The translations under genes were made by a program, and so were the position numbers. The notes under the pieces were generated by a model. That model worked only from the letters and a program-made list of their open reading frames with translations. It did no database searches and was not told the origin of the DNA. Shown piece by piece: positions 4,323 through 59,989 of a stretch of 64,000 bases of DNA. How positions within the stretch are numbered: the first letter of the stretch is position 1; each line of letters begins with the position of its first letter. This DNA comes from Emiliania huxleyi CCMP1516 (taxonomy: Eukaryota): the NCBI RefSeq assembly GCF_000372725.1, contig NW_005201213.1:186001-250000 (forward strand), written 5' to 3'.

Positions 4323-6914
4323 TCATCGGCACACGCGGTCCTTGACTCGCTTCAAGCTGGCGACGAGCGGCATCGCCAGCCGGAAGAGGGGGCGCGGCAG
4401 CGCGCGGTGGGCATCGAGCAGCGGGCGGGCGGCGTCGAGCACGTTGTACTCTGGGACGAGCGTGCCCGCCATCCCCTCGAGGCAGAGGACGTTTGTGACG
4501 AGGGTCATGTAGTTTGCGTCGATCGCGACGCCGCGGTCGCGCACGAGCGCCAGCACGCCGCGCAGCACCTCCCCGAACCTGGGGGTACGGCGAAGCCGGG
4601 GGGTTGGGAACGCGATCTCGTGAGATGCGGCTGCGATACCGCCGACTACACGGCTGTCGCCGCGGCGGTGAGGGTGCAGTCCGGCGCCAGAGGGCGCTCC
4701 GGCCGGCTGGTGGCGGGTGGGCGGGCGGCGGGACGTGCGGTGGCGGAGGTGGCGGCGATGGAGGCGGCGGAGCGTGCTGCGGCAGAGAAGGCGGCGGCGG
4801 AGCGTGCGGCAGCAGAGCGTGTTGTAGAAAGTAGTAGCGCCGGTAGGAGCCCGTGTGTGGCATCTCGGGTCCCCGAGCTGGATGCCGGTGCCGTACCCGC
4901 GGCATGTGCGGCGGAACAAGTCCGACATGTCGGCCTCGAACTCCTCCCTCGCCGTGCAAGCCTGCGAGTCCGAGAAGCGGAGCACGCACCGGGCGGCGGC
5001 GGCGCCGTCGCCCGCGCCCATCGCGTTCAGGAAGCCGATGAACGCGTCCGCCTATGCTGCGGTCTAGATGCTGCGGTCTAGATGCTGCGGTCTAGATGCT
5101 GTGGTCTAGATGCTGTGGTCTAGATGCTGTGTGGGCGTGGCTCGGGGCGTGGCTCGGGGCGTGGCTCGCCTCGCGGCGGGTGAGCCGCGCCACCATGCCG
5201 ACGTCGAGGAGCGCGAGCGAGTTGCGGCCGTACCTCCGCGCCCGGCGGAGCAGGATGTTGCCCGGGTGCAGGTCGGCGTGCATCAGGTTGTCGAGCAGGA
5301 GCATCTTGAGGTAGAGGTCCTCGCCGCGCGACACCACAAAGTGCGCCTGGGTTCGGGTACCGTGGGGGTGGGGGATGGCTCGGTACCACCCGGACGGCGA
5401 CCCTGGGTTCGGGTATCGTGGGGGTGGGGGGTGGCTCCGTCGGACGGCGACCCTGGGTTCGGGTGCCGTGGGGGTAGGGGATGGGTCCGGGTACCTCCTC
5501 CCGCGAGAGGGGGTCGGCGCCGCCGCTGCCGGAGGAGACGCCGAGGGTGAGGTCGGTGGTGTAGGTGGAGACGAGCTCTCCAGCCTCGTACGACTCGACG
5601 AGGACGGCCTCACTCGCGGCGAGCACGCGCGGGAAGCGGACGTCGCGCCACGCGGCGAAGTTCCAGCCGAAGCGGCGCAGGTGCTCCGCCTCGATGTCGA
5701 GCCGTGTCTGCGCGACCATGGTGCCCGAGAACTGCGTCACGGACGCCCTCAGACCAGACACACCACAGAGGCGAGCAAGCAAGTCCGAGGCTGCGCGCAT
5801 GAGGGTGAAGTCGGTGACGATCCTACGCGCTGAGTACGCCAACCTCGGGGCGGGAGTACGGCATTGTGCAGTGTGTTTCAGAGCACCGCGTGAAGACAGC
5901 GGAGAGGAATACAGTGACACAGCGGGATACGGCCGAATACAGCGGAATACGTGTCCTCTCGGGCGCTGGTTGGGAGACATGAACACGTGTTCCGCTTCTA
6001 GGGCCACGATCCGCCGCACGACCGCCGGGTGGCGCACCTAGGGTTAGGGTTAGGGTTAGGGTCAGGGTTAGGGTCAGGGTCAGGGTTAGGGTTAGGGTTA
6101 GGGTTAGGGATAGGGTGGCGCACCTTGACGGCCACCGTCTGGTTCAACCAGACCGCGCGGTGGATCTGGGCGATGGAGCCCGAGGCGATCGGCCGTCGCT
6201 CAAAGTCCTCGAACAGCTGGTCGACGGGTGCGCCGAGCGCCTCGCGCACCTCCCGCTCGGTGTGCCTCCAGCCGTGGCGTGGCGCCTGCGAGTGCAGCGA
6301 CGCGAGGGCGGCGCACATGGCCGTCGGAAAGACGTCCGGCCGGCACGACGCCCTGGAGAAGAGAGGCGCGGAGGGTAAGAGAGCAGGCGCGACGAGCCGG
6401 CACGAGGGTGGTGGTGAGTCGGAGGAGTGTGTGTGTCCTCGGGAGTGTCTCGGAAGTGTCTCGGAAATGGCGCGGACCACTGTCCCCATTTGATGAAGGC
6501 GGTGCCGGCGCGCGCGAGCGAGGCGGTGAGCATGCGGTACCAGACGCGGTTGCGGAAGAAGGGCCACAGCCACGCCAGCCACGAGAGCAGCATCGGCGGA
6601 GAGAAGATCAGAGCGAGCACGACAGCGCGGCCGACCAGGCTCGCAAAGCCGGGAGGCGCCTCGGAAACGAGCGCCGCCTCCTCGCGCTGGCCGATGATCT
6701 CGCGCAGCGGCGGCGGCCGCCCGCGCGCCACCGAACGCACCGCAGCCTGCAGACCCAGCCCGCCAACCACCAGCACTGCCGGGTGCTGCTGCTCCACCTG
6801 CCGCCGGAACGCCGCGGCGCCGCGGTGCACAGGCCGGTTCGACGGCCGATTGGGCGGCGAGGGAGGCTGACCTGCGTCGGCCAGTGCGGCCACGAGCAGT
6901 ACGAACGAGGTCAT
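4323..6914 (-). CDS. ABC1/UbiB (ADCK2-like) atypical kinase, about 7 exons
   Basis: Motifs FIKWGQW, IASGSIAQIHRA, VAVKVRHP, HADLHPGNIL and LLDVG. Inferred introns: 6353-6477, 6038-6123, 5823-6011/6014, 5347-5494, 5052-5169, 4579-4878. Confidence 0.88.
6040..6112 (+). repeat. Interstitial telomere-like (TTAGGG/TCAGGG)n tract inside an intron
   Basis: About 12 hexamers read directly from the sequence. Confidence 0.95.
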
Positions 6915-7297
6915 CGGCCGCAGCACTCGCCTCGTCGCAGGTTCCGCAGCTCGAACAAGCCAAGAAAAAAAATCTGCGTTGTTTCCTTCTTTTCTTTCTT
7001 TTCTTTCTGGCGTGCCAACTGGGTCAACGACGTCAAGAACAAGCAAGCGGCAGACGTCCTCTTACCCTCGGCCGCAGTGGAGGGCGCCCGTACCGCCTAG
7101 CTCCGCGGACGGGTCCCTCCACCCTTCAAGAAAGATCTCTCTCTCCACCCTTCACGTACGGATCATGTAGTCCCCACAATCGTTGTCGGATCGCTTGTCA
7201 TGTGAGAAAGAAAACAGACAAACCGCTGGGTGCGCTTCTTAGCTCCCCGGCCCTGGATGTGAGGTTAATGACTGCACTCCAAGTGCTCCAACCCTAG

Positions 7298-7552
7298 GAG
7301 GAGGCGGCGAGGGAGGAGGCGGCAGGGGAGGAGACGGCGAGGGAGGAGGTGGCGAGGGAGGGGGAGGCGAGGGAGGGGGTGGTGAGGGAGGAGATGGCGA
7401 GGGAGGAGGTGGCGAGGGAGGGGGGGGGAGGGGGGGGGGAGGGAGGGGTAGCAAGGGACGCTGCAAGGGAGGCGGCGGCGGCGGAACGGGTGAGAGTGGA
7501 GGGGGAGGAGGAGGTGTCGAGGGAGGTGGTGAAGGGGGAGGCGGCGACGGCA
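7298..7552 (-). repeat. Low-complexity SPPP/poly-Pro-coding tract, probably a gene fragment
   Basis: Purine-rich GGAGGAGGCGGCGA-type repeats with no recognisable domain attached. Confidence 0.5.
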
Positions 7553-7714
7553 GGCAGAACACGCTTTGTTTTCTTCTTTAGGTGTGCCGGTGATAGTACT
7601 AGCACGCGCCAGTTCGCACCTGTGTCGAGCCTGTCTGCTGTGAGAGAGAGTTGTCCTGTTTAAATTCTTCTTTATGCCCGCAACGATCCAGAAGAAGCTC
7701 GGCCCGACGCAACG

Positions 7715-9705
7715 ATGCTGGCGGGGACTCTGCTCGCGCTGGCGATCTCCGTCCGCCGCGCCTCAACGCTGACGGAGGAGTTTCGGTGCGCCCGTCTCGT
7801 CGCCGACTGCTTCGGCGGCTGGCCTTTCGCGCGGCTCGCGTCACTGCGCGCGCCGGGCCTCGAGGCGAACGTCTTCTTCCGGCCGATCGGCCCGCCCGCC
7901 GTCGCCGCTGCACTTGACAGCGACGGCGGCCTCTGCGGCACCGCTCAGCTCATGAAGGTCGAGCTTTCCCGCGCCACAGGGGCGGAGAGCGCCGGCCGCG
8001 TGGTCGCCTTCACGCAGAGCGTGAGCGTGGCGGCGGCGGCAAGGCGGCGCGGTGTCGGCCGCGCGCTGGTCGCCTTCTGCGAGGAGGAGGCGCGGGAGGT
8101 GTGGGCGGCTGACGGCGTCGACGAGGCCTGGCTCGCGGTGGCGACGGAGAACGAAGCTGCGCGGGCGCTGTACGACAGCTTGGGGTACCAGAGCTGCGGC
8201 GAGGCGCGCGGCAACTTGCTGCTCCGCAAGCGCCTCGCCACGGGCGCAGCCAGCGCGGGCGAGGGCTCGCAAGGCATCGCCGAGTACTCGGACCCGTTTC
8301 TGCACTAGTCTCTGTAGGCGCAGCCAGCGGACGAGGCTCGCGCATCGTCGCGTGCGAGGCTGTCGATGCCGCCGCCGACGCTTCCGCCGCCGACCGCCGC
8401 GCGCCTCTGAGCGGTGGCGTCGGCTGGTCGCCGCTGCTGTCCAACTTGGGCGTGCAGGTGCTCTACTCGGCGGTGCCATAGGTGGTGCGTACTCCCGGAG
8501 AAGCCGGCGCAATCTCGCGTAATCTCGGGTACTCAGGCGCTGTACTCGGCGGTGCCTCTACTGGGTGTGAGCCTGCTGCTCGCTCCGTTCGGAGGCCCGT
8601 CCAGCGCCTCGCTCCTCGGGCTGTCGGCGCCGTGGGAGGCGTACGACGGCGCGCTCTCGCCCGCTCCCCGCCGGGGGCGCATGTCCGGGACACGTCACAC
8701 GTCCATGACATGCCTGCGACATGTCCCACAGGCTGCCTCTCGCCCCTCCCTGCCGCATGGTGGGGTGCGCCACTGGTGGAGGCCGGGGTCGGCGGCGGTG
8801 TTGCCCTGGCGGAGCTCGCGCGACAGGGAGTCCTCCCGTCTCTCCTCGCTCCCACGGCGGGCGACCCACAGGAGCCTCAGCAGCCGCAGCCGCAGTCTCC
8901 ACCGCAGCCGCAGCCGCAGTCTCCACCGCAGCCGCAGCCGCAGCCGCAGCAGCCGCAGCGGCAGCAGCGGCAGCTCGACTACACGCCTGCGCAGGCTGAG
9001 CAGATGCGGCCGCTCTACGAGGTCTCCGCCGCCGAGCCGTCGTTCCCGCGCGCCGCGACGGCGATCGTGGCGTGGCAGCTCGCCGTCGCCTTGGCAGAGG
9101 AGCTGTACTACCGCGGCTTCGTCGAGTCTGCGGGCGTGCTCGCCATCAGCTACCCGCTCCGCGCTGCCGGGGTGGACATCGCCGCGGCGGGCGCGCTGCC
9201 GCTCGTCGAGGGCTTGCCGTTGCTCGTGAGCGCCGCGCTGTTTGGGCTGGTGCACGCGGAGTTTGTCGAGGGTGCCGCCGCCGCAGCCCACGCCGATGAC
9301 GCGGCGGGGGCGAGGGCGGCGGGGGCGGCGGGGGCGGTGGAGGCGGTGGAGGCTGAGGCGGTGGAGGCGGTGGAGGCGGTGGAGGCGGTGGAGGCGGTGG
9401 AGGCTGAGGCGGCGGGGGCGGCCGACGCGGCGCCTGCTCCGCCGATCTCCGCCAGCGGCGTGCGAGACACAAAGGCGTTCTGGTTCCGCGCCACCGCCGC
9501 GTACGGCGCGCTGTACTCTTCGCTGTACGTGCTGAGTGGCCACCGGCTGCTCGCGCCGGTTTGCGCGCACGCCGGCCTCAACATTGGCCTCTGTCTGCGC
9601 GATTGGGGCCGCATGCGCCGCACGCCGCCCGCGCTCCTGCGGCGCGTCTTTTCGGCCCGTGAAGGAACCTCCTCGGGGCAGGGGGTGGAGGCGGCGGAGA
9701 GATGA
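7715..9705 (+). CDS. GNAT acetyltransferase fused to a CPBP (CAAX protease/Abi) intramembrane metalloprotease, 4 exons
   Basis: GNAT motifs VSVAAAARRRGVGRAL and NEAARALYDSLGY. CPBP motifs AEELYYRG, SAALFGLVH and APVCAHAGLN. Removing introns 8244-8317, 8458-8536 and 8649-8731 gives one continuous frame. Confidence 0.75.
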
Positions 9706-9814
9706 GCGGGTTGAGACGTCCAAATTGCGCTCTTATTAATAGGGGGAAAAATCAGATCGAGATCCCCGATGCCCGAACCGCCTCGAAAAAGCGAGTCAAA
9801 CACCGCGCAAATCT

Positions 9815-9965
9815 GGGTGACGTCCTTAAAATACCTTGCGGACGGGGTGACGTCCTTAAAATACCTTGCGGACGGGGTGACGTCCTTAAAATACCTTACA
9901 TGCGGACTGGGTGACGTCCTTAAAATACCTTCCATGCGGACTGGGTGACGTCCTTAAAATACCTT
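9815..9965. repeat. Tandem array of 5 x GGGTGACGTCCTTAAAATACCTT with 7-11 nt linkers
   Basis: Five identical 23-mers read directly. Confidence 0.95.
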
Positions 9966-10060
9966 GGAGCAGATAGATGGACCACCCACCCACCCTGTCA
10001 ACATCATGTGGGGAGGAACGTTGATACGTTGATGGCGCCAGCGCCTGCTGTTGACAAGTG

Positions 10061-10667
10061 GGGAGCAGACGGCTTCATCGCGAAGGCCGAAGCTGCCCCC
10101 AGCAGGCGTCTTGACGGGTATCAAAATTCTTCCCTACAAAAGAGGCCAACGGACCCGAGAATATAACTTCGCGCAGCTGCGAGAGCCGAGACGAGCTTTC
10201 TCGGAGCGACAGCCTCAAAGAAAAAAGGGTGGATGGGTGGGGGGACGATCGCTGGTGAGCACCAGCGCGCCCCAAGAACGGTGGGGTGCCCTCGACCGCG
10301 CGTCCAAGTCACTTGGGCGGACGAGCGAGCGGCACATGGCCTGTGCTGACAAAGAGAAATCGGAGTCTGGCGACGAGATCGATAAAAGTGCGTCGTTTCT
10401 TCTGAGGACTGAGGTGCCTCAAGAGGTGTACTACACCTCTGGGGTGCCTTTCAGAGGTGTACTTCAGAAGCAGAGCTGACGTCAGCGCGTCGCCAGCACC
10501 TCCTTCTCTCCTCGTCGAACCCACCACCATCCCCTTTCTCCTCCTATCTGTCTTGTGTGTGCCTTGCTGGGGGAGCAGACGGCTTCATCGCGAAGCTGCC
10601 CCCAGCAGGCGTCTTGACGGGTATCAAAATTCTTCCCTACGACAAAAGTGGCCAACGGACCCGAGAA
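10061..10667. repeat. ~100-bp direct repeat pair (10061-10161, 10571-10667)
   Basis: GGGAGCAGACGGCTTCATCGCGAAG...CCAACGGACCCGAGAA occurs twice with small indels. Confidence 0.9.
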
Positions 10668-11176
10668 GCAAAGATAGAGCGAACAATGCAACAAAGGAGA
10701 AAGGACACACACAGGCAACACATTCGGGACGATAACAGACGATGTCGATGAGTGAGACGCTGTAAGAGAGATCATGCAGTACTCCACAAGTTCGGTGTGT
10801 AGAGTCCGAGTGTAGAGTGACCGAACTTCGCTCGACGTTCACAGCGAGCTCCTGCGCCCACGTCGCTCGTCGGAGGGCCGCGTTGCTGCGCGCAGCACGC
10901 CGCGCCGCCATCCTCGATCATGCCGCTGCAACATGTTGCTCGTGATAACCCAGTGAGTGTCTCCGCACTTGTTAGACACAACATGACCGTCGGTGGCGGA
11001 GGAAGTCCGTCCATGTTGCCGTTTTCATGGGACTGGCACGGTCGGTGTCGGCAGCCTTCGACCTTGGTGGGGTGTCACTGCACTAGGTAACGGGTTTCGA
11101 AAACTACAAGCGCCCGTCCTACCCGATACGAAAAGAGGTTGTGGATGGCGGGGCTTGCATTTTGCCGATTATCGTA

Positions 11177-11372
11177 CGTACGTACTTTTTGCTTACTGGG
11201 AGAAAAGGGACAGGGGGTTGTGTCCTCTAGGCCCCTAAGGGCCCTACGCGCGGCGTGAGAGCTTGGAAGCGAGCTTTGCACGGCGATCGAGGATGGCGCG
11301 GTTCACCCCCTTCACCGAAGCGATGGAGATGCGTTCCGCGTGTTGTGACACAAATGAGAGGCGGGAGTGGGA
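11177..11372 (-). mobile_element. 3' end of a CRE-like non-LTR retroelement (divergent copy) with 3' UTR
   Basis: SRLSFVSQHAERISIASVKGVNRAI matches SLSFMSHYAERISLSVVRGVNRAI at 26.4 kb. The UTR segment recurs at ~35133-35180. Confidence 0.55.
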
Positions 11373-11976
11373 GGGCCCAACTTCAGAATCGTGCTTTTTG
11401 GGTTGGGTGTAGACAGAGTGCGCCGTCGTGAGCGGGTGTAGGACCGGCTCCGTCGGCAGCCGTACGAGCGGCGGAGGGGCAGTGGGGGGAGGGGCGGGGG
11501 GCGGCGCCGCCCTCGCCGAGGTCATGCTCGGTTGGATCGGCAGCAAGCCGATGGGAATGGCATACGCGAAGGCTCGCAAAACGGGCGGCGGGTGGGCGGG
11601 CAGCAGCGAAGTGGGGGGCGAGAGCGGCGACGTGGGCGAGAGCGGCGACGACGGGTCCGGCACGCTGAGGATCAGCGGCCTCACGTGCAGCGGCGTCTGC
11701 GCGGTTTGCATCGGCGGCGGCGGCGCAGCAGCCGAGCGTGGAACGGTCGGGCCCGACGGACGGACGGCGGTGAGGAGAGAGGTGGCGCGCGAGAAGCCGG
11801 AGGTCTTCGCCGAGCACACGTGGCCCAGCTTGGGCTGCCCACATGCGGCGCAGCGGTTCTTGGCGAGGCCGAGGCGTCGCGCTTGCTGCCCGAGCTCGAT
11901 TCTGAGGTAGCGGTTGCGAACGGAAGCCGGGCTGCGGTTGGTGAGGCCGTCGGCGATGCGGCCCCATTTACGACCC
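11373..11976 (-). pseudogene. Myb/SANT 3' exon fragment plus a CxxC...HxC knuckle
   Basis: GRKWGRIADGLTNRSPASVRNRYLRI...KNRCAACGQPKLGHVC follows a pyrimidine tract and CAG. No first Myb helix was found. Confidence 0.6.
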
Positions 11977-12104
11977 TGCGGAATTGGGAGATGCAGGGGG
12001 TGAGAGACGGCGCGGGGCGGGATCTTCAAATACTTGGGCGAGAGTGATGGCGTTTCGACGGCGGCCGCGCCTGCTTGAACGGGACGACGGCATACTGACA
12101 CATT

Positions 12105-12471
12105 CCGTTCTGGTGCCCCTCGGCTGGCCAGAGGACGACTCACAATGCAAAATCGGAAAGACATCACGAGGGGCCGTATAAACGGTGCCGCAGCGGCCCG
12201 GGACACTAACAATGAGTTGCCGCCACTCGCCCGGCCTCCTAACCCTCGGGGTCGCCCGGAAAGTGGGCTTGCGCACCGGCGACCCCCCCAGCACGCCGAC
12301 CCGAGGTGTACCCTCCGGCCACCTGGGAGGGGCGCTCACTCCATGTTTGGCCCATTGGCTTCACCATGATGGATACGGAGATGGCCAGCCCTTGGTTGTG
12401 CACCTGCGGCGCGAAGAGGAGGTGATCTCGGCGGACGACGGCCATGCCGAGAGCGGGCGCAGCGCGGAAGA
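12105..12471. repeat. ~367-bp dispersed repeat, copy 1
   Basis: Highly similar to 18822-19188 in the same orientation. Confidence 0.92.
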
Positions 12472-12806
12472 GGCAAGAGGGTGCGCAGCGCGTCGCGGCC
12501 GCGCGCTTGGGAGCCGGGGGGATGGCCGGAGGGGGCGGGACGCCTGCATGTCCTCGAAGCCCCCAACCGCATACGCAAGCCGAGCCGCGAACGGCGGCGA
12601 GAGAGTTTGGCAGGGTCAGGCGAGGACCGCGCATGGCCAAGGAACCTTTTTTAGGACCCCCAGCGCGGCAAGAACGGGCGTGCGTCTCCCATCGTGTCTC
12701 CCCTTCCGCCGACCCCTATCACACTGTGATCTGTGTGATATCACACAGATCACACAGATTGTGTTCTCGCTTAGCAGAAGTTTACGGCCGTTGTTTTCAT
12801 TTTCGA

Positions 12807-15421
<2,615 letters not shown>

Positions 15422-18292: not shown

Positions 18293-18821
18293 GCCAGAGA
18301 CCGAGAGAGTCAGATCGTGTGACAATCCTGCGCTCCGGCCTGCTGTGTAGTGGTTGTGGGACCCCCTCCTTCATCTAGGGCATGAATTCGTAGTGGCGGG
18401 CGGGTGAGGCTCGGAACACATGTTTCCTCGCGCACCCCCTCTCTTTTCGTTCTCTTGTCACTGTGTGGAACGCGCTTGCGGATGCGCGCCCCAAAATGTC
18501 CGCCTCAAAAGGCCTCGTTCTCGCCCCTTTCCTGTACGCGTGGGTCTCAGAGGACGAATGCGCACCGGACCTTCGAGGACATCAAAGTCGGCTGCGCCCT
18601 ACGGCCATCCAGCCGGCTCTCGAGTGTCGCAGCGCGACGCGCTTCACCCCTCGACTCCGCGCTGCGAGTTGATCTGGAGACGACGCTCGGCCACCGCCAA
18701 CTCCACACTGACGTGTCGCACATGCGCCGAGTGTCCCCTCCGAGGGTGTCCTTGTATAGTATACTTGGTTGCGAGTTAAAAAAAGCCCATTCCGCGCCAT
18801 CAGCCAGCAGCAGTACACATG

Positions 18822-19188
18822 CCGTTCTGGTGCCCCTCGGCTGGCCAGAGGACGACTCACAATGCAAAATCGGAAAGACGTCACGAGGGGCCGTATAAAC
18901 GGTACCGCAGCGGCCCGGGACACTAACAGTGAATTGCTGCCACTCGCCCGGCCTCCTCCCCCTCGGGGTCGCCCGGAAAGTGGGCTTGCGCACCGGCGCC
19001 CCCCCCAGCACGCCGACCCGAGGTGTACCCTCCGGCCACCTGGGCGGGGAGCGGAGTCCGATTTTGGCCCATTGGCTTCATCATGATGGATACGGAGGTG
19101 GCCAGCCCTTGGTTGTGCACCTGCGGCGCGAAGAGGAGGTGATCTCGGCGGACGACGGCCGTGCCAAGAGCGGGTGCAGCGCGGAAGA
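18822..19188. repeat. ~367-bp dispersed repeat, copy 2
   Basis: Matches 12105-12471. Confidence 0.92.
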
Positions 19189-19703
19189 TGCTGAACAAGC
19201 TCCTCTTGTAGCTCGATCGGTCACACCGCCATCGCCGTCGGGGAGAGGGGGGACGACACTGCTTCTGCAGCGTGCACCTCAATCCTGTACCGTGTTTGTT
19301 ATGACCCCCCCCAATGAACACACCAGTGAGGGTGGGCGAGACGATCGAGGGGTCCCGTACCATGCATGCGGAACCGACCCTATCCAGTGCTCAAGTGCTC
19401 AAGAACCGCGCGGGCGTGGGTGGGTGGGTAAGCGAGTAAAAACGGGTACACTCCACTCGGTGCCACTGCCACACCAACTTGCATCAGGGTGGAACAGCGG
19501 CGGCGGCGGTTGCGACGACGGGATCCGCAAAGGCTGTGAAGGGCCTCCAGGGCTCGCACCTCAACCTCTCACAGGCCAGCGCACAGCGCCATAGCAGGTA
19601 TTTTCTTCTCAATAACAAGGCTGTGAAGGCGGGTACTCGCGGCAGCACGCATCGCACTGTGGACGCAGCGGCATATCAGGCGGTGTTGGCGATCTTCCAC
19701 GCC

Positions 19704-20229: not shown

Positions 20230-20310
<81 letters not shown>

Positions 20311-21099: not shown

Positions 21100-24000
21100 C
21101 TACTGCAGGGCGACGCCCAGCTTGCCGACGAGCTCGATGAGCCGCTTGAGCCCCATGAGCCAGTGGCCGTTGTCGGCCCAATCAGTCGTCGTCAGGTGGA
21201 CGTGCACCTGCGACCATAGGCGCGACACTGCAAGTGAGCGTTGCGGGCGGCGCGACGCGCGAGGGCTCGGGCGGCGGCCGCCTCGAGCGCGGTGCGCGCG
21301 TCGCCCGCCGCCAGCGCGCCGCACAGCTGCTCGAGCTTGTCAAACACAGGCTGCGACACGCCTCCGGCCTGCAGGTAAGGCAGGTGGGGTGAGGTAAGGT
21401 GGGGTGGGGTGAGGTAAGGTGGGGTCGGCTTCTCCACGCACACGAGGTGGTGGGGCAAGGGCTAAGCGACCCCTCGCGACTCGTCCAGAGCAGCACGGCA
21501 TTCAAAGCGCAAGGCCCAGTGCGCGCGTGGTTGAGCAGCGTGTGTTTTGGGGGGGGGGGGGGGGGGGGGCGTCCGGGGGGGGGGTTGCACCTGCAGCTTG
21601 GTGAAGAGCGCCCCGGAGCGCTTCTCGGTGTCCTCCAGCCGCCGCTTGTCCACCGGCTGCAGCTGGTAGGCGCCGCACTGCGCCATGAGGCCCTGGATGG
21701 TGCCAATCACCCCCGACGGGTCGTACGTCGGCGGCGGCGGCGCGGGCGGCGGCGCGGGCGGCGGCGCGGCCGCGGGCGGCGGCGGCTCCGGCTGCGCATA
21801 GCTGGCTTGCGGCGGCACTTCGTACGACGGCTGCGCCGGCGCCTGGTACTGATACGCGGCGGGCGGCGGCTGCGGCGGCGGCGGCGCGGAGCTCGAGTAG
21901 CCCGTCGAGTAGCCGGCCGCGGGCGGCGCAGCGGGCGCCGGGGCCGGCGCTGCGGGCGCCGGAGGCGCCTGATACGCGTAGGGCGCGGCGGGCGGCGCGG
22001 CGGGCGCGGGCTCGTAGGTGGACATGGGCGCGGCGCGGCTGCTGTAGCCGTTGTTTGGCGCCGCGCCCTGGTCATATGCGCCATATTGGCCGCCGGCGGG
22101 GTAGCTGCCGTAAGCCTGCTGCTGCTGCTGCACGTGCTCGTAGGGGTCGGTGCTGTAGCCGCCGCCGTTGTGGTAGCCGTTGCCGTTCGCCGCCTCGTAG
22201 GGCTGCTGCTGCGCGTAGGCGTCGTAGCCCGGCGTCTGCTCGTAGCCCTGCGTCTGCTCGTAGCCCTGCGTCTGCTCGTAGCCCTGCGTCTGCTCGTAGC
22301 CCTGCGTGTAGCCCGCCTGCGGCTGGTAGCCCGCCTGCGGCTGGTAGCCCGCCTGCGCAGCCGAGCTCTCCGGCACGTGCACCACGTCGTACGGCACCGG
22401 CGGCGGCGCCATGAGCAGGTTTGGGTTGGCGCCGTGGATGCGGTGCATGAGCAGTGCGGCCGGGTCGTCGACGGTCTCCGCCGGCGGCAGCTGCACCAAG
22501 TAGCCCATCGCCTCATGTAGGCACCCCTGCGCCGCGAGCAGCTCTGTGCGGGCAGAGGGACGCGGCGGTGAGGGGAGCGGCGGCGAGGGCGGCGGCGAGG
22601 GCGGCGGCGAGGGCGGCGAGGGCGGCGGTGAGGGCGGCGGCGAGGGCGGCGGCGAGGGCGGCGAGGGCGGCGGTGAATGTGTGGAAGACGCGTCCGAGTT
22701 GTCGTGGGCTAACGCGCGCGGCGGGTGTGGGCGTGCAGTGATGTCTCAGTAGCGCCTCGGAGTGTCTCGGAGGCGTCTCGGAGGCGTCTCGGAGGCGTCT
22801 CGGAGGCGTCTCGGGAGCGTCTCGGGAGCCTGCAAACGCCGTCAGCTGCTCGGCGATGAGCGGGTAGCCGTCCTTGATCTGCGTCGCCTCCTGCAGCACG
22901 ACCGCCTTCTCGAGCAGCTCGAGCAGCGAGCCCGCCTCCGCCCCGCCGCCCCCGCCGCCGCCCGCCGCCCCCGCGCTCTGCTCGCTGTAGCGCGCGTGCC
23001 ACAGCTCGACCGCCTTGACCGTGTTTGCGGCGCACATGTAGCAGAGCACCGCCGCCGACGCGTCGCCTGCCTCAGCCTCGAGCCGCTCGCCGAGCAAGTT
23101 GCACAGGCCCTGCAGCGCCTCGGCCGAGGCGTAGGTGTGGATGAGCGCGAGCGTCTCCTTCCACGCGGGCAGCGACGACTCAGCGACGTACCGGTCAAAG
23201 TCTTGGTGCACGACGGCCGACAGCCGGCTCATGAACGCCGACTTGTTCGAGGCGAGGTACTGGTCGCGCGTCGCCGCCCAGAGCTCCTCACCACCGGACG
23301 CGGCCAGGATGAGCGCGTCGGCGACGCGGCCCTGCGCGAGGCACACCTCGACCGCCGTGGCAAAGTTGCCGTTCAGCATCGCGAGCGACACGTCCGGGTC
23401 GTCGGGCGCGGGCGCAGTCTCGAGCGGCCCGGCCCGCGCGGGCGGCTCGGCGGCAGGCTCGGGCGGCATGGGCGACGCGCCGTCGTCGGGCGCGGGGGGG
23501 GTCGCGGCCGCCCCCATGGCGTCCAGCTCCGACGCCTGCGACATCTGCCGCTCCGTCGCGATTGCCATCTGCGAGAAGAGCTCCTCGGGGTTGACGTCCT
23601 GCAGGAAGGCTCCGGGGAGGCTCAGGGAAGGCTCCGGGGAGGCTCCCGGCGTCGTCTGTAGAGAGGTCTGGGGCCTCTCTTCGTGCCCCTCCTGGCACAG
23701 CCACTGCATCCCAGGGAATGTCTAGGACGAGTCTGTGGAGGCCGGGTCTAGGACATCCGCTCTCCTGCAGCGGCGGCTGCGGCTCCGGCGTCGCCGGCGT
23801 GACCGGCTCGGGCTGCGCCTCGTACTGCGGCTCGTACTGGGGCTCGTAGGCCGCCTCGGCCTGCGGCTCGGCCGGCGGCGGCGCGTTCGGGTCGACGAGC
23901 CCGAGGAAGCCGAGCACGAGCGTCCGCTGGTCGTGTGAGCAGAGCACCTCCATCAGCTTCCAGTCGTCCGCGTCGCGCTCGCTCGGCGCCGCCTCGGCCT

Positions 24001-27020: not shown

Positions 27021-30000
27021 ATGCTCACCATGTTGCTCGCTCCTCTCGGCATCTCCTCGTTTCCGTCCTCGCCGCCTCCCTTCGCCCCGCCGCCGGCCTC
27101 GCCGTCGCCACCGCTGCCGCCGCCGCCGCCGCTGATTCCCGGTGGAGCCCACGGCGCAGCGGCGCTGTGCGGCTACCTCGAGGCGGTGCCGTACCCAGGA
27201 TGGGAATCGTACTCGGGCGTGCAGCTGCACGACACTCGATACAACCTCTCGAGCCCAAGGGCCATCGAGGCTGGCTGTGCAGCCTACGACGCCGGGGCTG
27301 CGGAGATGGTGATCGCGAACTGCAACACCAACGGCGACGGCTCAGTCTTCGTGTACCGTGCGTCGAAGGATGCCTACTGCGTGGACCCGAACGTGCCGTC
27401 GCCGCCGCCGCCTATGGTGCCGCCGTCTGGGGCAAACGCGCTTGGGCCTGATTATGAACGCGGGCTTCTGGTGGTGCGCACGTTGTGCCGCACTCTCAAC
27501 CCACACCCCCGTCCTTCTTGACCTCCCACACACCCACTCATAGCCTTCTTTCTCCCTTCCCACCAACCCTCACCCTCTCAGCGCCCTGCACACACAGCGC
27601 GCTGCCATGTTCGGCATTCTCGCAACCATGGCAGGTGCGCGTGCTGCTGACGGACCTCGACGAGGATTACTTCGCGCGGCGTGGCTTCAGCGAGGCGGAC
27701 GTGCGCGAGCTGACGTGGACCGGCCGCGGCCAAGTGAGTGACACGCCGTTCACGTCGCTGGCCGCCGTCTTCGCCGCGTCGACATACAACAAGATCACCT
27801 TCCCCGAGGCCAAAGGACGCATCGCTACCGTGAGCCTCGATGTGAGCAGTGCCGACCTCGACGGTGGTGCAAGCTGCAATGAGGCCGAGGCGCGCTCGCG
27901 TGCAGACGACGCACTGGAGGCGCTGGGCGTGAGCAAGAGCGCGTACCAGCACGTCGAGTACGCGTTGCCAGACAACGGCTGGATGGCGGGGTGCCCATGG
28001 GGTGCGTACTCGAACGTGTGCGGCGATACCAACTGGGCGCGAGCCAACGGCAACCCGCCCGCGATGGGCTCTTGCCGCACGGTGATCCGGATCGGCAACA
28101 GCTTCAGCTTCGCGAGCGTCGACCACGCGGGGCGGCTGCACGAGCTGGGCCACTCGCTCGGCATCCGAGGCCACGGCGCGACGCCCAGCCCCGCCTCGCA
28201 GTTCAGCGACGGCTACATGCACGATGACGCCATGTCCGCCGGCGGGTACACACACTTTACGCCGGCGCACCAGCTCATAATGGGCGTCGTCGACCTGCAG
28301 CACGTGCTCGTGTGGGCCGGCACCGAGCTGGTGGTGCCGTTGCAGGACGCGGCACGCCTGCCCGACGCCGGTCAGTTCACCGCGCTGGCGGTGCGCGCCA
28401 AGAGCGGCGGCAAGCTTCTCTCGTACCGGGCGGGCGTGGAGCTCTTCGAGTCTCGCAACCAAGTCGTGGGCGGCGCCAACGGCAAGGTGTTGGTGCAGTC
28501 GATTCTGCACGACGAGTTTGCGGGCGAGGCGCTGCTGGCGGCCGGCGAGTCGCATGGGGTCGAGCTGGACGCGTCATCAGGCGGGGCGTCGCTCACCGTG
28601 CTGGTGTGCAGCGTGGGCAGCCGCGCCGCAACGCTCGTCGTCACCTCTAAGCCCGCTGCCGACGCGCAAGCCGCGTGCGCCGCCGGCGTCAGGCCACCGC
28701 CGGCAGCAAGCCACAACTTCGTCATGTCCGACCTGTGCAGCGCGCGCGTCCAGCTCCCCGGTGGAATGAAGGCCATGGGCGCGTCGTGTGAGGGCGCGGA
28801 CCAGGGCACGTACCTTGGCGTCTTCGACTCGGCGGCGGAGTGCGCGCCGGCCGCGGCCGAGGCCTCATGCGCGCTGTACATGTTCGCCCCCAAGGCGCCT
28901 GGCTGGGGCTGCCGCTGCTGCGAGCGCGTGACGCAGGACCACTCAAGCTGGGACATTTGGCATGCGGACCCGAGCGTAGCGCCGGCGGCGGAGCAGCCGT
29001 TTGTGGACGAGTGGCGTTGCCAGGTGGCGAACCTTTGGAAGGAGGGCAGCCCCACGGCGCCACCCTCCGTGCTGCCCGCACCGGACACCTCGGCGTACGA
29101 CCACATCAGCTGCGACCTCGATGGCGACGGCGCCGCCGACAGCACGTGGGTGCGCGGCCAGGTGCGCCAGCTGCGCAACTGCCAGCTGGGCGCGGCGCAC
29201 TCCGATGCGGTGGCCGGGTGGAGCGAGTGTGACCTGCACGGCGGGCGCGGCCGCGGCGCCAACCGATGCCACGTGCCAAGCGCAGCGCTGGCGATGCAAA
29301 TCTGCAGCGCGCACGCCGACTGTGTGGGCGTGCAGCGCGATGCCGACGGACACGAGCCTCGTGCCTCGCATGAGCTGGGCTACGGCTCCAACGTGGTGGA
29401 GGCGTGGCTGAAGGGATCCGCGCAATTCGGGCCGTCTCACCTGCTGTCGACCTCGCCGCCGTCGCCCTCGCCGCCGCCGTCGCCGCCGCTTACTAAGTGC
29501 ATCGCGGCGACGTGTGTCTCACCGCTGCCGCCGCCGCCTCCCTCCGCCTCGCCGCCGGCCTCGCCGTTGCCGCCGTCTTCGCCATGCATGGATCTTCCGG
29601 GCGCATCTGTAGCTACTTGGTTCGACGGCACTAACGGGTGTGACGCTTACTCAGCCAACGGCTGGTGTGAAGCCTATGGCAATACTGATTACATTGGCGA
29701 GGGCACGGCCAACGACAAGTGCTGCGTGTGTGGGGGCGGGGTAACAGCGCCCTCTCTGCTGTTGCCACCGCTGCCGCCGCCGCCGCCGCTGATTCCCGGT
29801 GGAGCCCACGGCGCAGCGGCGCTATGCGGCTACCTCGAGGCGGTGCCGTACCCAGGATGGGAATCGTACTCGGGCGTGCAGCTGCACGACACTCGATACA
29901 ACCTCTCGAGCCCAAGGGCCATCGAGGCTGGCTGTGCAGCCTACGACGCCGGGGCTGCGGAGATGGTGATCGCGAACTGCAACACCAACGGCGACGGCTC

Positions 30001-38404: not shown

Positions 38405-38850
38405 GCCCAGTTTTCATTGTGCTTGCAGAGCTTCTCGTATGCATAGGGATACTGGCCACAGACCAAGTCGTTGCTCTGCATGTAGTTATTGCGCTCGTCC
38501 GTGCACTCTGTGCAGGCCTTGGGAGGCGGCAACGGCATGGGTGGAGGCGGCGCTGCAACCTTGCACTTCTCCTTCGTGCTGCTCCACTTGCATCCGCTAG
38601 TGGCTTTGCAACTCTGCTTGTCGGTCACGTCCTTGCAGGAAGGCAACGGCGTGGGTGGAGGCGGCGCGGCGCAGCACACGTCGGACGTCGCCGTCGTAGC
38701 CCGCTCCGTTCGCATAGCACGAGCGCTGGCAGAACCTCTTCTGCACCCAGTTTTCATTGTGCTTGCAGAGCTTCTCGTATGCATAGGGATACTGGCCACA
38801 GACCAAGTCGTTGCTCTGCATGTAGCTGTTGCGCTCGTCCCGTGCACTCG
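38405..38850 (-). pseudogene. Truncated secreted-protein fragment with a duplicated Cys-rich module
   Basis: DERN.YMQSNDLVCGQYPYAYEKLCKHNENW occurs twice (~38405-38507, ~38745-38849). It is frameshifted and the second copy is cut off. Confidence 0.6.
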
Positions 38851-42668: not shown

Positions 42669-43115
42669 ATGGTCTCCGCGGTGCCGGGAAAATCTACCAC
42701 AAAACTACTACGACGGCAGCCAAAAGCTCTTCTTCTCGTCGAAACACCACGTCGGCTGCGCTCACCGCCGACGGCTGCCCTTGCCGTCGACATTTTTTCC
42801 GCCGATTCATCGCCGCCGTCTTTATCCCAAGCGTCTAGGCCACTGCTGGCGGTCACCACCGATCTCCACGTCGCCGATTCCATCGCGGAGGACGCCACCA
42901 CCGCCGGAGCTAGCACCTCCTCGGCACGCGGGGCACTTCCCGCCTCCCCCCCCCCCCCCCTCCCTCGCGCCTGGGCCGCTCGGGACGCAGCCCCGCGTTC
43001 TCCCCGCCCCCCCCTCCTCCCTCCCTGCCTCGACCCTCTTCCACGCGCCGCTCGCGCAGGTCTGCTATACTCGGGGTCGTATTTCGATGTGCCACACACC
43101 GACAACAAACAAAAG

Positions 43116-43212
<97 letters not shown>

Positions 43213-44793
43213 CCACCACCACCCACCCACCCGCCACACACCACACACCCACACACACACACACACCCCACACACATTCCCCCCCCCAAACCCCCCCCGG
43301 CCTCTCTATATTCTCCGGCGTCCAATCGCCCGAGACATGAACTTGAGCCCGCTCCCTCGGGCGCCGCCCTCCGCAGGCTCAACGTTCGAGCTTTGTCTCC
43401 CGTCACTCTCTCCTCTCATTTCAGACCCCCCACTCATGCGCATAGCTGTTCGCACTTCCGACCAATGCAGGCCGCTTAAAGTGCCCCAGCGCCGCCCCAC
43501 ACCTTCGCCCCTGTGGCTGTGCCTCTCAGGCTCCGCCCTGCGCGGATTTCGAGTGCACCGGCTGCAACTATCTCAGCACCAATGGGGCCTATTATGAAGC
43601 GCCGCCTGGCCAGTGCTCCTTCGACTCGTCCACGCAGAAGTGCAAGACGTCGATCTGGAACGACGTCGAGAAGGACACGTGCCTCGCCGAGGTAATCCCC
43701 AATCCCCGCAACCCCCCCCCCCCCCCATCCCTCTCTTCCCCTCCTCCAGTCTCTCTCTCCCTCCCTCCCTCTCTCTCTCAGCCGCCGCCGCCTTTGCTTT
43801 GCGCTCCCTGCCGCTGCCCCAGCGCCGCCCCACACCTTCTTCCTCGCCCCTGTGCCCCTCTCAGGCTCCGCCCTGCGCGGATTTCGAGTGCACCGGCTGC
43901 AACTATCTCAGCACCAATGGGGCCTATTATGAAGCGCCGCCTGGCCAGTGCTCCTTCGACTCGTCCACGCAGAAGTGCAAGACGTCGATCTGGAACGACG
44001 TCGAGAAGGACACGTGCCTCGCGCCCCCTCCGTCCGCGTCGCCCCCGCCGTCCGTTTCGCCGTCGCCGCCGCCGCCTCTGCCGCCGCCTCCCTCCGCCTT
44101 GCCTGCGCCGCCGCCGTCCGCCTCGCCCTCTCCGCCGCCGCCGTCCGCCTCGCTGTCGCCGCCGCCGCCTCTGCCGCCGCCTCCCTCCGCCTTGCCTGCG
44201 CCGCCGCCGTCCGCCTCGCCCTCGCCGCCGCCGCTGTCCGCGTCGCCCTCGCCGGCTGCCGCGCGCCGCGGCGGCACATGACCCGTCTNNNNNNNNNNNN
44301 NNNNNNNNNNNNNNNNNNNNNNNNNNNNNNNNNNNNNNNNNNNNNNNNNNNNNNNNNNNNNNNNNNNNNNNNNNNNNNNNNNNNNNNNACGCGGCGCCCG
44401 CTACAGGCGTGTGCCGCACGGACGAGCAGAACAAGGGCAACTTTGACGAGCTTTGGGGTATCGAGCTCGGGCTATTGGGGTGCCACGACAGGTGTCGCTT
44501 CAGCCGCGGCTGCACCGGCGCGCCTCCCCCCCCCCCACCCACCTCAGCTCCTCCCTCTTGGTCGCAGCACACCGCGCTTTGGCCCGCGCAGGGTTCGAGA
44601 TTACACGAGATTACACGAGCTTACACGAGATTGCCATCTGGCCCGCGCAGGGTTCGAGTACACCGTCGAAGGCAAGGCGTCCCGCTGCAAGCTCTTCAAG
44701 GGCCCCATCCTCTCGACGCTGCCTGTCGGCGGCGCGCGCTGCTACAAGAAGGCGTCCAAGACGGAGCTCGGGCCGCACAAAAAGCGGCTCTAG
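42669..44793 (+). CDS. Multi-exon Pro/Cys-rich surface protein with a duplicated exon and a PAN-like end; spans a gap, start uncertain
   Basis: Exon APPCADFECTGC...DTCLA is duplicated (43530-43687, 43865-44021). SPPP tract, then C..GCTGFEY...CKLF...CY. Confidence 0.5.
43118..43276. repeat. (CA)n microsatellite
   Basis: Seen directly. Confidence 0.97.
44289..44388. other. Assembly gap (100 N)
   Basis: Run of N. Confidence 1.
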
Positions 44794-57300: not shown

Positions 57301-57460
57301 GCTGAAAAACGCAAAAGACAACAAAAGAAATCGCGGCGCCTCGACGCACCTCGTAGAAGACAACCCCTTGGGTTGTGTGTTTTCTTTCTTTCTTTCAGAA
57401 GACAACCCCGTGACAACCCCGTCTTAACTTCCCGCACGCCCCCCTGCGCCGACTTAGCTC

Positions 57461-59989
57461 TCAGAGCCCACTCACATCTGGACACTGGAGCTCGAATCCT
57501 TCCCGCTCGCTCACCGCATCGCGAATCGCTTTCTCTCCCTCGTCGCCCAAATCGTTGTACAGCAGGTTCAGCTTGGTCAGCGCCCCGTTGACGCGAAGGG
57601 CGTCGGCGATCGCGACGGCGCCCTCGCCGCTGATGTCGTTGCGGGCGAGGTTGATGGTGTTCAACACCCCGTTGACGCGAAGAGCGGAGGCCAGCGCAGC
57701 GGCGCCCTCGTCGCCGATCTTGTTGTACATGAGCACGAGGTTGGTCAGCGCCTCGTTGACCTTAAGGGCCTCTGCGATCGCGCTGGCACCCTCGGGGCCG
57801 ATGCCGCCGCTGCTGGTGTATGGGTCGCCCGAAAGGTCAAGAGTGGTCAGCACCCCGTTGACTGCGAGAGCGCCGCCGATCGCCTTCGCGCCCTCGTCGC
57901 CGATCTCGTTTTCGCCGAGGTCGAGGTTTTTCAGCACCCCGCTGCCGCGCAGCGCCTCGGCGATCGCAGTCGCGCCGGTGGGGCCGATCTCGTTGCCGCC
58001 CATGTTCAAGGAGGTCAGCACCCCGTTGACCGAAACCCCCGCCGCGACGACCGCAGCCGATCCGGGTCCGAGGACCTTCCCCGACAAGTCGAGCGACGGC
58101 ACCGCCTCGCGCCCGCGGAGCTGCAGCGGGTTGAGCGGGATCGCGCGCTCCTCGCCCACGCTCAGCGCGACGAGCGTGTGCGTCTTCCGCACCGCGCCGA
58201 GCAGCGCCTCCCGCACGCGGCCGCACACCTTGCCCCAATCGAGCGTCAGCGACGTCAGCGCCGACGGCTCCGACTCCATCCACGCGACCACTGTTCCCAC
58301 CATCCCGTCATCGACCAGCTTCAGTTTGCCGTCCTCCTCGTCCTCGGAGTCGCGAGTCACGCCCGTGCTCACGACCATCTCGCGCCCCTGGTAGATCACC
58401 TTCGCCCCGACCTCCTTGGACTCGCCCTCGACCTCGCTCGCCTTGATCCAGCCGGTAGTCCCAAGGGGGAACCCCGTCAAATCGACGCCGCTGGCCTGCA
58501 GCGGCAGTACCGTATCCATCGCCGCGGCAAGCCCGCTGCCGCCGCCGTGCTGCATCGTCGCCGCGAGCACCGCCGCGCGCTTCACCTTGAGCGCATCGCC
58601 CACCGCCGCTTGGAAGCGCAGGTCGTTGTTGTACGCCTCAGCCTCGTCGCCGAGCGGCGCCTCGAGCCGCTCGTCCGCCGCACCGGCGTCCGCGCCGCGC
58701 TCGAGGCCGAGATGCATGCGAACTAGTTGCGACGCCTCCTCCGCTGCCTCCCCAGCCACCCCCCGGCGCACCTCCGCCGCCATCTGCGCGCCCATGTCGG
58801 TGAGCAGCTTCTTGCGCTTGCCCGCCACCTGCTCGAGCGTGAGCGAGGCCATGTTGATGGAGAAGCTGCACTGGATGACGAGCGTGCTGCCCTCCACGCC
58901 CGTCAACCGCACCTGCAGGTGTCGAGAAGGGGCAGGCGATGAAGGAGAAGGCGGAGGAGGGAGGTGGAGCGAGGTTGACGCACCTGCAGGCCCATGAGCG
59001 GCGGCAGCAGCGTCTCCCTCTCGTGCGGGTACTGCGAGAGCCACGCAATGTCGGCGCCGCGGTCGATCATGCCCATCCCGAGCTCGAGCACCGTCGACGC
59101 CTTGCCCTCCGCGTAGTGCACCGCCTGCGCGCGGTCGGTGGTGGTCGACGAGAAGCCGTACTCGACGCCGCCGCGGAAGCCCAGCGCGTCCGGCTTGAAG
59201 AAGGCTTCCGGGAGCGTGGCGCCCGCCCAGCCGCGGTAGAGCGGCGTGATCTTGGTCAGCGGCGACAGCTTGACAATGATCGAGTTGATCGCGTGGATGG
59301 TGGTCGAGTACTGGTTGTGCCACGTCCAGCGCACCGCGGCCTCGCCTTTGCCTGCCGCCGTCGCAGCCCACTCGCCGAGGTTAAGCAAGCCGCACTTCTT
59401 CTGCAGAAAGGGCACCTCCTTCTCCGAGGCGTACTCCAGCCGCACCGCGCCGTCGGCGCCGCGCGCTGAGGAGAAGCGAAGGACGCCGTTGTACTTCTCG
59501 TACATCGGCCCCGTGTACAGCCGGCCGGCGACCAGCTCCTCCTTGGTGAGCGGCGCCTGCCCCGCCTTAACGAGCTTCGGGTTCATCTCGTCCGCCATCT
59601 TCTTCTCGTAGACCGAGAGCGGCTCCGGCTTGCGGCACCACTCGGGGTGGGCCGTGCGGAAGTCGCCGCCGCGCTCGGCGTAGCGGCCGTCCTGGTCCTC
59701 GACAGGCGCGACGACAAACTCCCACTCCAGCTTGGAGGTCGCGCCCTTGATGCCGTTGGAGGTGTCGAACGGCACGTCCGCATCCTTCTTCTCGCAGTGC
59801 TCCGTCTCCATGGCCTTGAGGAGCGAGCCGTCCACCATGAGCGGCGGCCCGATGATCTTCTCGAGGCCTGCCCACAGGTCAGGGGACGGGGGTCGCTGGT
59901 AAGAGTGGGCGGGTAGGATAGGTAAACTACTGGCGTGCAGCACGCCTCCGTAGAACTGCTCCACGCCGCCGAAAGCCATCTCGCCCTTG
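57461..59989 (-). CDS. R-S-E class mono-ADP-ribosyltransferase domain plus RI/NLRC3-type LRRs; 5' end lies in the gap
   Basis: RLYTGP..KYN.VLR, LYRG, GFSSTT and SQYPHERE, then LxxLxLxxNxIGxEGAxAIAxAL repeats. Introns 59868-59945 and 58913-58983. Confidence 0.85.

What the first reader, a model, noticed from the sequence alone, without database searches (positions are those of the whole stretch)
4579..58990. Window-wide intron class: intron 5' end copies the start of the next exon, interior is simple-repeat filler
Seen: the same architecture recurs in unrelated genes. ABC1 has AGGTGCGCCACCC x2, GGATCGT x2 and G(C/T)TCGGGGA. GNAT-CPBP has 23-30 nt duplications at three introns. TRM61 has CAGGT(T)GGAGC, the protease GGTGCGC, and ART-LRR CCTGCAGGTGCG. 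SEC31 has junction repeats CTGCAGGA and CTGCAGG that lie mostly upstream of the splice sites. Interiors are TTAGGG, (GGCGAGATTC)n, (CA)n or pyrimidine tracts and are not homologous to each other, unlike introner transposons. Known: tandem duplication of AG|GY proto-splice sites and break repair are proposed routes of intron gain. Inference: a pervasive intron-generating process (staggered break or duplication plus filler synthesis), helped by a spliceosome tolerant of GC donors. Different mismatch levels would reflect different intron ages.
Basis: partly seen in the sequence, partly recalled or inferred. Interest (0 to 1): 0.85.

Follow-up and report, generated by a model that had tools for sequence, protein, structure and literature searches.

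The report
Algal introns born with target duplications
In this coccolithophore alga, some spliced introns begin with a copy of the first letters of the next exon, and relatives carry such introns in some gene copies but not in others, which likely marks introns newly made when telomere repeats or other DNA were inserted at a staggered cut and the duplicated target became the splice donor.

Summary
The pattern is real but affects a minority of introns. The window matches Emiliania huxleyi proteins. I called 25 introns in 9 genes; 9 have RNA-contig support. The intron start resembles the next exon's start in 5 of 25 (ungapped) or 8 of 25 (gapped). The ungapped excess lies entirely in ABC1 and GNAT-CPBP (65 matches vs 35 expected); the other 16 introns show none (64 vs 62). 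The SEC31 and ART-LRR repeats are not significant and fit splice consensus. Duplication plus mostly simple-repeat interior co-occur in only 2 of 25.

Relatives support recent gain. Other haptophyte-clade copies share almost none of the ABC1 positions. In one lineage (98-99.5% identical copies) two telomere-filled introns with 15- and 6-nt duplications each occur in one of three copies, one at the same site as the window's TTAGGG intron. A close relative of the window gene has a seventh intron that the window lacks.

It is not one class: the telomere intron fits break repair, the GA-donor intron looks multicopy (introner-like). The routes are known from Daphnia and dinoflagellates; ten literature searches found no haptophyte report.

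The parts
4323..6914 (-). ABC1/ADCK kinase gene, 541 aa after removing six introns
   Evidence: Joints in RNA-like contigs; spliced frame; P0034/P0036 of the same length; named E. huxleyi models P0003/P0004
6038..6123 (-). 86-nt GT-AG intron: 13-nt target duplication (copies 6113-6125 and 6027-6039) around CCCTAA telomere-type repeats; both splice sites lie in the duplicated target
   Evidence: Piece arithmetic (260 letters between listed pieces); p 0.002; 110 nt long in L033; same site carries a separately built intron in L066
5823..6011 (-). 189-nt GA-AG intron with 7-nt duplication; interior apparently multicopy (introner-like candidate)
   Evidence: Only AG-ending register of the RNA joint; depth, shared gap at 5876 and loose ends at 5822 and 6004; gapped p 0.017
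4579..4878 (-). 300-nt GC-AG intron, 9-nt copy with one mismatch at the donor +2 base
   Evidence: Joint in 4 of 4 runs; p 0.011
5702..5703 (-). Empty site: a 169-nt GC-AG intron lies here in L033 (99% amino-acid identity); only a 3-nt repeat at its ends
   Evidence: Pairwise alignment; named model P0004 contains the translation of this intron's 3' half
6353..6477 (-). 125-nt GT-AG intron, no exon copy, CCGAGA-type 11-mers
5347..5494 (-). 148-nt GT-AG intron, no exon copy, 50-nt tandem unit
5052..5169 (-). 118-nt GC-AG intron, 5-nt junction repeat only, 12- and 14-nt tandem units
8244..8317 (+). GNAT-CPBP intron 1, GC-AG, 13-nt exact duplication then degenerate; no tandem filler
   Evidence: Joint in 4 of 4 runs; p 0.002
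8458..8536 (+). GNAT-CPBP intron 2, GT-AG, CAG plus 20 nt with 2 mismatches duplicated
   Evidence: Open frame; RNA piece lengths of 142 and 114 end at its borders; p 0.0003
8649..8731 (+). GNAT-CPBP intron 3, GC-AG, about 25 nt degenerate copy; no tandem filler
   Evidence: Joint in 3 of 4 runs; p 0.007
13221..13864 (-). TRM61 last intron, (CA)n interior, gapped copy of the exon start
   Evidence: Open frame only; gapped p 0.003, ungapped p 0.23
14013..14157 (-). TRM61 intron with CAGGT(T)GGAGC and 10-mer filler; borderline
   Evidence: Open frame only; gapped p 0.053
27474..27634 (+). Protease intron, GGTGCGC repeat; weak
   Evidence: Open frame only; p 0.064 ungapped, 0.040 gapped
23599..23764 (-). 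SEC31 GA-AG intron, CTGCAG|GA repeat; donor equals exon start but no further copy
   Evidence: Open frame only; p 0.98
58913..58983 (-). ART-LRR intron, CCTGCAG|GTGCG repeat; not above chance
   Evidence: Open frame only; p 0.16 ungapped, 0.073 gapped

Best explanation
About a fifth to a third of the introns in this window start with a copy of the next exon's first bases, and they are likely young insertion scars: extra DNA would have been placed at a staggered cut, leaving the target twice, with the first copy serving as the splice donor. Shown: the copies, the splicing in ABC1 and GNAT-CPBP, lineage-specific ABC1 positions, and filled versus empty sites in relatives. Inferred: because donors here may be GT, GC or GA, almost any target starting with G can act as donor, while the AG comes from the start of the target or the end of the insert, so the message is restored exactly. 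The inserts likely have more than one source. For the TTAGGG intron the likeliest route is break repair with telomere-repeat addition (about 0.7); CCCTAA on the sense strand would supply a CTAAC branch-type motif and a pyrimidine-rich tract. For the GA-donor intron a multicopy introner-like element is likelier (about 0.55). The three GNAT-CPBP introns have long worn copies and unique short inserts, best read as older repair or duplication events.
For: Excess similarity in the window. Replication: paralog L071, 8 introns, 48 vs 31.1, 48 of 100,000 simulations; 13 filtered haptophyte-clade introns 72 vs 47.7; 30 introns of other eukaryotes 111 vs 101.7, not significant. Exact shared start of 6 nt or more: 9 of 46 vs 0 of 30, Fisher p 0.010; without L071 6 of 38, p 0.031. 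Filled/empty pairs: L066 has a 61-nt insertion (15-nt target copy plus CCCTAA filler) absent from L047 and L053; L053 has a 96-nt insertion (6-nt copy plus filler) absent from L047 and L066; exon identity 97.7-99.5%. Read-through proteins of the sister group run on at both sites, so gain is the simpler reading. L066's copy follows its own exon, not the window's, at the first differing base. Positions 146, 231, 271 occur in 0 of 12 other haptophyte-clade loci, 223 in 1 of 12, 341 in 0 of 8. In 8 of 8 telomere-type introns CCCTAA outnumbers TTAGGG on the sense strand, and two begin with TTAGGG before switching.
Against: An annotation-free scan found no excess of this layout over control dinucleotides (16 with AG vs 30 CG, 11 GG, 15 TG, 13 AC, 25 CC). 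The haptophyte-clade excess rests on two introns: without my manual re-call of L019 963 of 100,000, without L019 and L066 12,166 of 100,000. The one filled/empty pair in the window's own lineage has just a 3-nt repeat and its direction is unresolved. Inserts are not clearly templated from flanking exons (3 of 25 at p<=0.05). Position 223 is also used in non-haptophyte L039, and position 312 recurs in L019, L047 and L071, so some sites may be old or hotspots.
Confidence: 0.68

Rival explanations
1. Most of these introns are introner-type mobile elements whose target-site duplication gives the donor, with interiors since scrambled by minisatellite growth.
For: GA intron: depth 2411 and 3664 in its bin vs at most 257 in flanking bins (X7, X11), 6-9 contigs per run share a gap at 5876, loose ends with unlike flanks begin at 5822 and after 6004, that is at the intron ends less the 7-nt copy. 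Its 3' part resembles part of L033's extra intron (2 of 500 shuffles). Five E. huxleyi introner families, 653 elements, TSD status '?' or N (PMC9860276 supplement rows). Same donor-from-target layout in dinoflagellates.
Against: No end-to-end relatives of the six ABC1/GNAT-CPBP copy-bearing introns in the window or the other loci, longest terminal inverted match 3-7 nt; duplications vary from 7 to over 20 nt; pure telomere repeat needs no element; GNAT-CPBP intron bins show low depth.
Confidence: 0.2
2. The introns are older, and the copies arose later by local duplication across the junction or persist by chance plus splice consensus; empty sites reflect loss between direct repeats.
For: A 20-nt duplication with 10-mer filler lies inside an intron end at 44580-44660 (sequence), so the scar can form without making an intron; direction at the window's empty site is open; recurring positions 223 and 312; weak cases equal (C)TGCAG|GTGCG consensus.
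Against: Near-total lack of shared positions, even with the closest other lineage L067; sister groups lack the L066 and L053 introns; exact 13-31-nt copies exceed the null.
Confidence: 0.08
3. Plain tandem duplication of exon sequence containing AG|GY, with no inserted DNA.
For: Both splice sites lie in the duplicated target for the TTAGGG intron and L066's intron; GNAT-CPBP copies are 20-27 nt.
Against: This predicts that the intron's 3' part copies the upstream exon end; only 1 of 25 does at p<=0.05, and 45-75 nt of non-exonic sequence lie between the copies.
Confidence: 0.04

Closest known systems
Daphnia pulex new introns from staggered double-strand-break repair (Li et al. 2014, PMC4202315; abstract, section 19 and passages read)
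   Same: Insert flanked by a direct repeat shared with an adjacent exon (33 such repeats, 4-12 bp, among 90 new introns), presence/absence among alleles, parallel gains at one site, no obvious source sequence.
   Different: Here GC-rich, repeats reach 13-31 nt, the copy is nearly always the downstream exon start, donors include GC and GA, and some inserts are telomere repeats.
Introner-like elements of Symbiodinium and Polarella glacialis (bioRxiv 10.1101/2020.10.14.339549; passages read)
   Same: 5' splice site taken from a GH-starting target duplication, 3' site from the insert or the duplication; frequent GC and GA donors mirrored by the downstream exon start.
   Different: Those have fixed 4-, 5- or 8-nt duplications and large families, in Symbiodinium with inverted repeats; here lengths vary, no inverted ends were found, and only one intron has a sign of a family.
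Short interstitial telomeric sequences inserted at breaks in primates and rodents (PMC2246262; passages read)
   Same: TTAGGG arrays at sites that are empty in orthologs, sometimes with target duplication (6 of 130 rodent, 4 of 25 primate loci).
   Different: Here the insertions sit in coding sequence and are spliced out; some relatives show TTAGGG turning into CCCTAA within one insert.
Non-canonical donors of E. huxleyi (Feldmesser et al. 2014, PMC4028052; passages read)
   Same: GC 56%, GT 40%, GA 4% of 241 curated junctions; 10 GC, 13 GT and 2 GA of 25 here.
   Different: The passages read ascribe GC donors to genome GC content and do not link donor to the next exon's start.

Membership tests
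Break-repair new introns (Daphnia type) | Direct repeat shared by an intron end and the adjacent exon, beyond chance | tested here: met
   5 of 25 ungapped, 8 of 25 gapped
Break-repair new introns (Daphnia type) | Removed from RNA | tested here: met
   ABC1 and GNAT-CPBP junctions in contigs of 3-4 runs whose RNA status is the tool's guess; P0034/P0036
Break-repair new introns (Daphnia type) | Filled and empty alleles of the same duplication-bearing intron | tested here: inconclusive
   Met in relatives L066 and L053; the window's four ABC1 introns covered by L033 are all shared with it, and its one differing site has a 3-nt repeat
Break-repair new introns (Daphnia type) | Insert has no dispersed family | tested here: inconclusive
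   None in window or loci, no whole genome available; GA intron looks multicopy
Introners / introner-like elements | Family of introns alike from end to end | tested here: inconclusive
   Not found in 64 kb plus fetched loci; indirect sign for the GA intron only
Introners / introner-like elements | Short fixed target duplication (3-9 bp) | tested here: not met
   7, 9, 13, 13 and over 20 nt in the window; 6, 15, 31 in relatives; not all introner families have one
Introners / introner-like elements | Terminal inverted repeats | tested here: not met
   Best match 3-8 nt within the 40 terminal bases of 19 introns; many families lack them
Introners / introner-like elements | Match to the five published E. 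huxleyi families | not testable with these tools
   Only summary rows seen, no sequences
Break-inserted interstitial telomeric sequence | Telomere array at a site empty in orthologs | tested here: met
   Intron 6038-6123 is 91% tandem repeat; site empty in 11 of 12 other haptophyte-clade loci
Break-inserted interstitial telomeric sequence | Telomerase shown to write the insert | not testable with these tools
   Capture of telomeric DNA would look alike
Tandem-duplication introns without insert | Intron equals downstream exon start plus upstream exon end | tested here: not met
   Upstream match in 1 of 25

The most novel reading that the evidence does not exclude
Haptophytes are making introns now by healing staggered breaks in genes, often with telomere repeats: the target copy becomes the donor whatever its second base, which would explain why most E. 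huxleyi donors are GC and some GA, why intron positions are lineage-specific, why telomere repeats are scattered through haptophyte genomes, and why two distant lineages gained a telomere intron at the very same AAG|GTGCGCCACCC site.
Probability: 0.35. Interest if true: 0.8.

Novelty: new variant of a known kind. Interest (0 to 1): 0.6.

Why it matters
How new introns arise without a transposon is an open question with few worked cases. Haptophytes would offer an abundant, sequenced system in which filled and empty alleles can be compared, with a specific prediction: young introns' donor dinucleotide equals the next exon's first two bases. It also gives a testable cause for the unusual GC/GA donors of E. 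huxleyi and for intronic telomere repeats that break assemblies (one fetched contig, L053, jumps between genes inside such an insert).

Tried and rejected
No whole genome is held, so the genome-wide test could not be run. Viral contigs gave nothing for the ABC1 alignment, a telomere-acceptor motif or a GA-intron motif; the prokaryote scan gave 3 short bacterial matches of 18-22 nt, taken as chance. The annotation-free repeat scan showed no excess. Templating of inserts from flanks was not supported. A branch-type CTRAY motif lies in the last 60 nt of only 2 of 25 window introns, so the branch-point argument applies to telomere inserts alone. No listed run is on record as RNA; status is a guess backed by joints. 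The cluster look-up and the L071 search gave no species names for the relatives, so their lineages are unnamed. Rows dropped: from 77 loci, those scoring under 500 and 12 near-duplicates were left out of the tree (68 rows, quick search only); intron calls near alignment gaps were filtered out, including L053:247, L047:369 and L058:244; L033:146 and :223 (same as window), L053:278 (same as L047) and L053:517 (chimeric part) were removed; a 36-nt in-frame call in L071 was treated as coding; the L019 intron was re-called by hand from 50 to 68 nt. Window genes at about 38,000-44,700 and 11,400-12,300 were not included because their junctions were uncertain. Read et al. 2013 was not held; its report of 10-11-bp intronic repeats is recalled, not read. 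Rogers/Hellsten tandem duplication and polymerase-theta repair are recalled or seen as listings only.
Full report
Identity. The window is GC-rich eukaryotic DNA; an ABC1 exon matches two named Emiliania huxleyi gene models and transcriptome proteins. No whole genome was available, so all counts come from the 64-kb window and fetched loci.

Splicing. Contigs of four runs from four studies were laid on 4250-12100. They skip 4577>4878, 5048>5167, 5345>5494, 5816>6006, 6351>6477 and 8242>8317 in 4 of 4 runs and 8647>8731 in 3 of 4. Sliding each joint to an AG end gives GT, GC and one GA donor. The TTAGGG intron 6038-6123 follows from 260 letters between listed pieces and the only open frame; 8458-8536 follows from the frame and from piece lengths of 142 and 114. 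Proteins P0034 and P0036 (541 aa) match the spliced ABC1 across all six junctions. GC and GA donors are already published for this species (PMC4028052, passages).

Is the copying more than chance? I added 16 introns in TRM61, SEC31, protease, JmjC, SMN, ART-LRR and an F-box-like gene from open-frame continuity alone. Counting matches at positions 3-15 against coding positions that start with the same two bases gave 129 vs 97.1 for 25 introns (10 of 100,000 simulations), 5 of 25 individually at p<=0.05, 8 of 25 with gaps. ABC1 plus GNAT-CPBP give 65 vs 35.1; the other 16 give 64 vs 61.9. The SEC31 and ART-LRR repeats are not significant and look like (C)TGCAG|GTGCG consensus. Copying of the upstream exon end is significant in 1 of 25. 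An annotation-free scan found no excess.

Interiors. Tandem repeats cover none of 8 interiors and at least half of 8 others; only 2 of the 8 copy-bearing introns are mostly tandem repeat. Several share a CCGAGA-type 10-11-mer. The GA intron stands out: depth 2411 and 3664 in its bin for X7 and X11 against at most 257 beside it, 6-9 contigs per run with one shared gap, and loose ends with unlike flanks at 5822 and after 6004, the intron's ends less its 7-nt copy. That is what a dispersed element carrying its own AG would give; it is indirect. Published tables list five introner families in E. huxleyi (PMC9860276, section 7 and supplement rows).

Relatives. A metagenome scan gave 77 ABC1 loci, aligned with a spliced aligner that recovered all six window introns. 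A quick tree groups 31 rows with named E. huxleyi and Prymnesium parvum proteins (SH-aLRT 99). In 12 other loci of that clade, positions 146, 231 and 271 are empty in all, 223 is filled in 1, 341 is empty in 8 of 8 that span it, and 400 and 457 in 5 of 5 once chimeric L053 is set aside; three of the 12 show no intron at all and could be transcript-derived. The closest other lineage, L067, has two introns at other places.

Filled and empty sites. L066, L047 and L053 are 97.7-99.5% identical in exons. L066 alone has a 61-nt insertion: a 15-nt target copy and CCCTAA repeats, at the same site as the window's telomere intron, following its own exon at the first base where the two lineages differ. 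L053 alone has a 96-nt insertion with a 6-nt copy. Read-through proteins of the sister group are continuous at both sites, so gain is simpler than loss. L019-L025 hold a 68-nt intron with a 31-nt exact copy. Paralog L071 (species unknown; counted with haptophytes on its donors, composition and shared assembly prefix with L033) has 3 of 8 significant copies, and near-identical protein P0087 lacks its first intron, though that record may be partly spliced RNA. Thirty filtered introns of other eukaryotes show no excess. The haptophyte-clade excess depends on L019 and L066. In the window's own lineage, L033 has a 169-nt intron at 5702/5703 that the window lacks; named model P0004 contains its translated 3' half and P0034 carries L033's neighbouring residues in a fully spliced protein. 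It has only a 3-nt repeat and its direction is unresolved.

Mechanism. Shown: copies, splicing, lineage-specific positions, filled/empty pairs in relatives. Inferred: insertion at a staggered cut duplicates the target; a lax donor rule lets the first copy start the intron; AG comes from target or insert. The donor equals the exon's first two bases in 13 of 25 window introns (permutation p 0.049), 7 of 8 in L071 (p 0.020), 7 of 13 in the clade (p 0.13) and 6 of 30 controls (p 0.98); all 3 GA donors precede GA. Telomere inserts read CCCTAA on the sense strand in 8 of 8, two starting with TTAGGG, as expected if both broken ends were extended and joined; telomerase itself is not shown.

Prior knowledge. 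Daphnia break-repair introns (PMC4202315), dinoflagellate elements that take GH donors from the target copy (bioRxiv 2020.10.14.339549) and telomere insertions at breaks (PMC2246262) cover the parts. Frequent interstitial telomere repeats are noted in Calcidiscus without a link to introns in the passages read (PMC13518057), and haptophyte intron turnover is raised as an open question (PMC8379373); passages of PMC12480563, PMC3488318 and PMC12130899 added nothing specific. Ten searches surfaced no report of this layout in haptophytes; the library lacks most subscription papers and the genome paper, and preprint supplements were not seen. Earlier scan notes describe similar scars in other marine protists, unchecked here.

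Verdict. Observation partly confirmed; interpretation partly supported; a new variant of known intron-gain routes, interest 0.6.

Noticed in passing
window 5702/5703; L033:1349-1517: Intron presence/absence within the E. huxleyi lineage: 169-nt GC-AG intron in L033 and, by its translation, in the scaffold behind named model P0004, absent from the window.
   Followed up: partly
window 5822-6004: Interior of the GA-AG intron is matched by several other contigs per run with sharp ends; possible introner family.
   Followed up: partly
window 44580-44660: 20-nt duplication around three 10-mers at the 3' end of a probable intron: same scar, apparently without a new intron.
   Followed up: no
window 37039-37140: Inside an F-box-like gene intron, a second acceptor followed by a worn copy of the upstream exon end, after CCGAGAT 10-mers.
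   Followed up: no
window 8244-8308: Unspliced GNAT-CPBP intron 1 reads in frame to a stop, which would give a GNAT-only protein.
   Followed up: no
window 4549-4907: A contig retaining the whole 300-nt intron occurs in 4 of 4 runs with 0-1 differences; intron retention is known in this species.
   Followed up: no
L053:2200-4100: Contig jumps from ABC1 into another gene inside telomere repeats; that gene has several telomere-filled probable introns, three with 15-17 of 18 bases matching the next exon start.
   Followed up: partly
L069, L030: Non-haptophyte loci with several near-identical introns in one gene (GTGAGCGAG...CGCTCGGCGCAG), introner-like.
   Followed up: no
L019, L047, L071 at ABC1 column 312 phase 1: Same intron position in three lineages with copies of 31, about 8 and 6 nt; hotspot or old site.
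   Followed up: partly
window 60290-60930: Open frame with a YMDD motif, likely a reverse-transcriptase fragment (read by eye, no search).
   Followed up: no
window 12075-12480 and 18820-19190: Two copies of a roughly 370-nt intergenic repeat.
   Followed up: no
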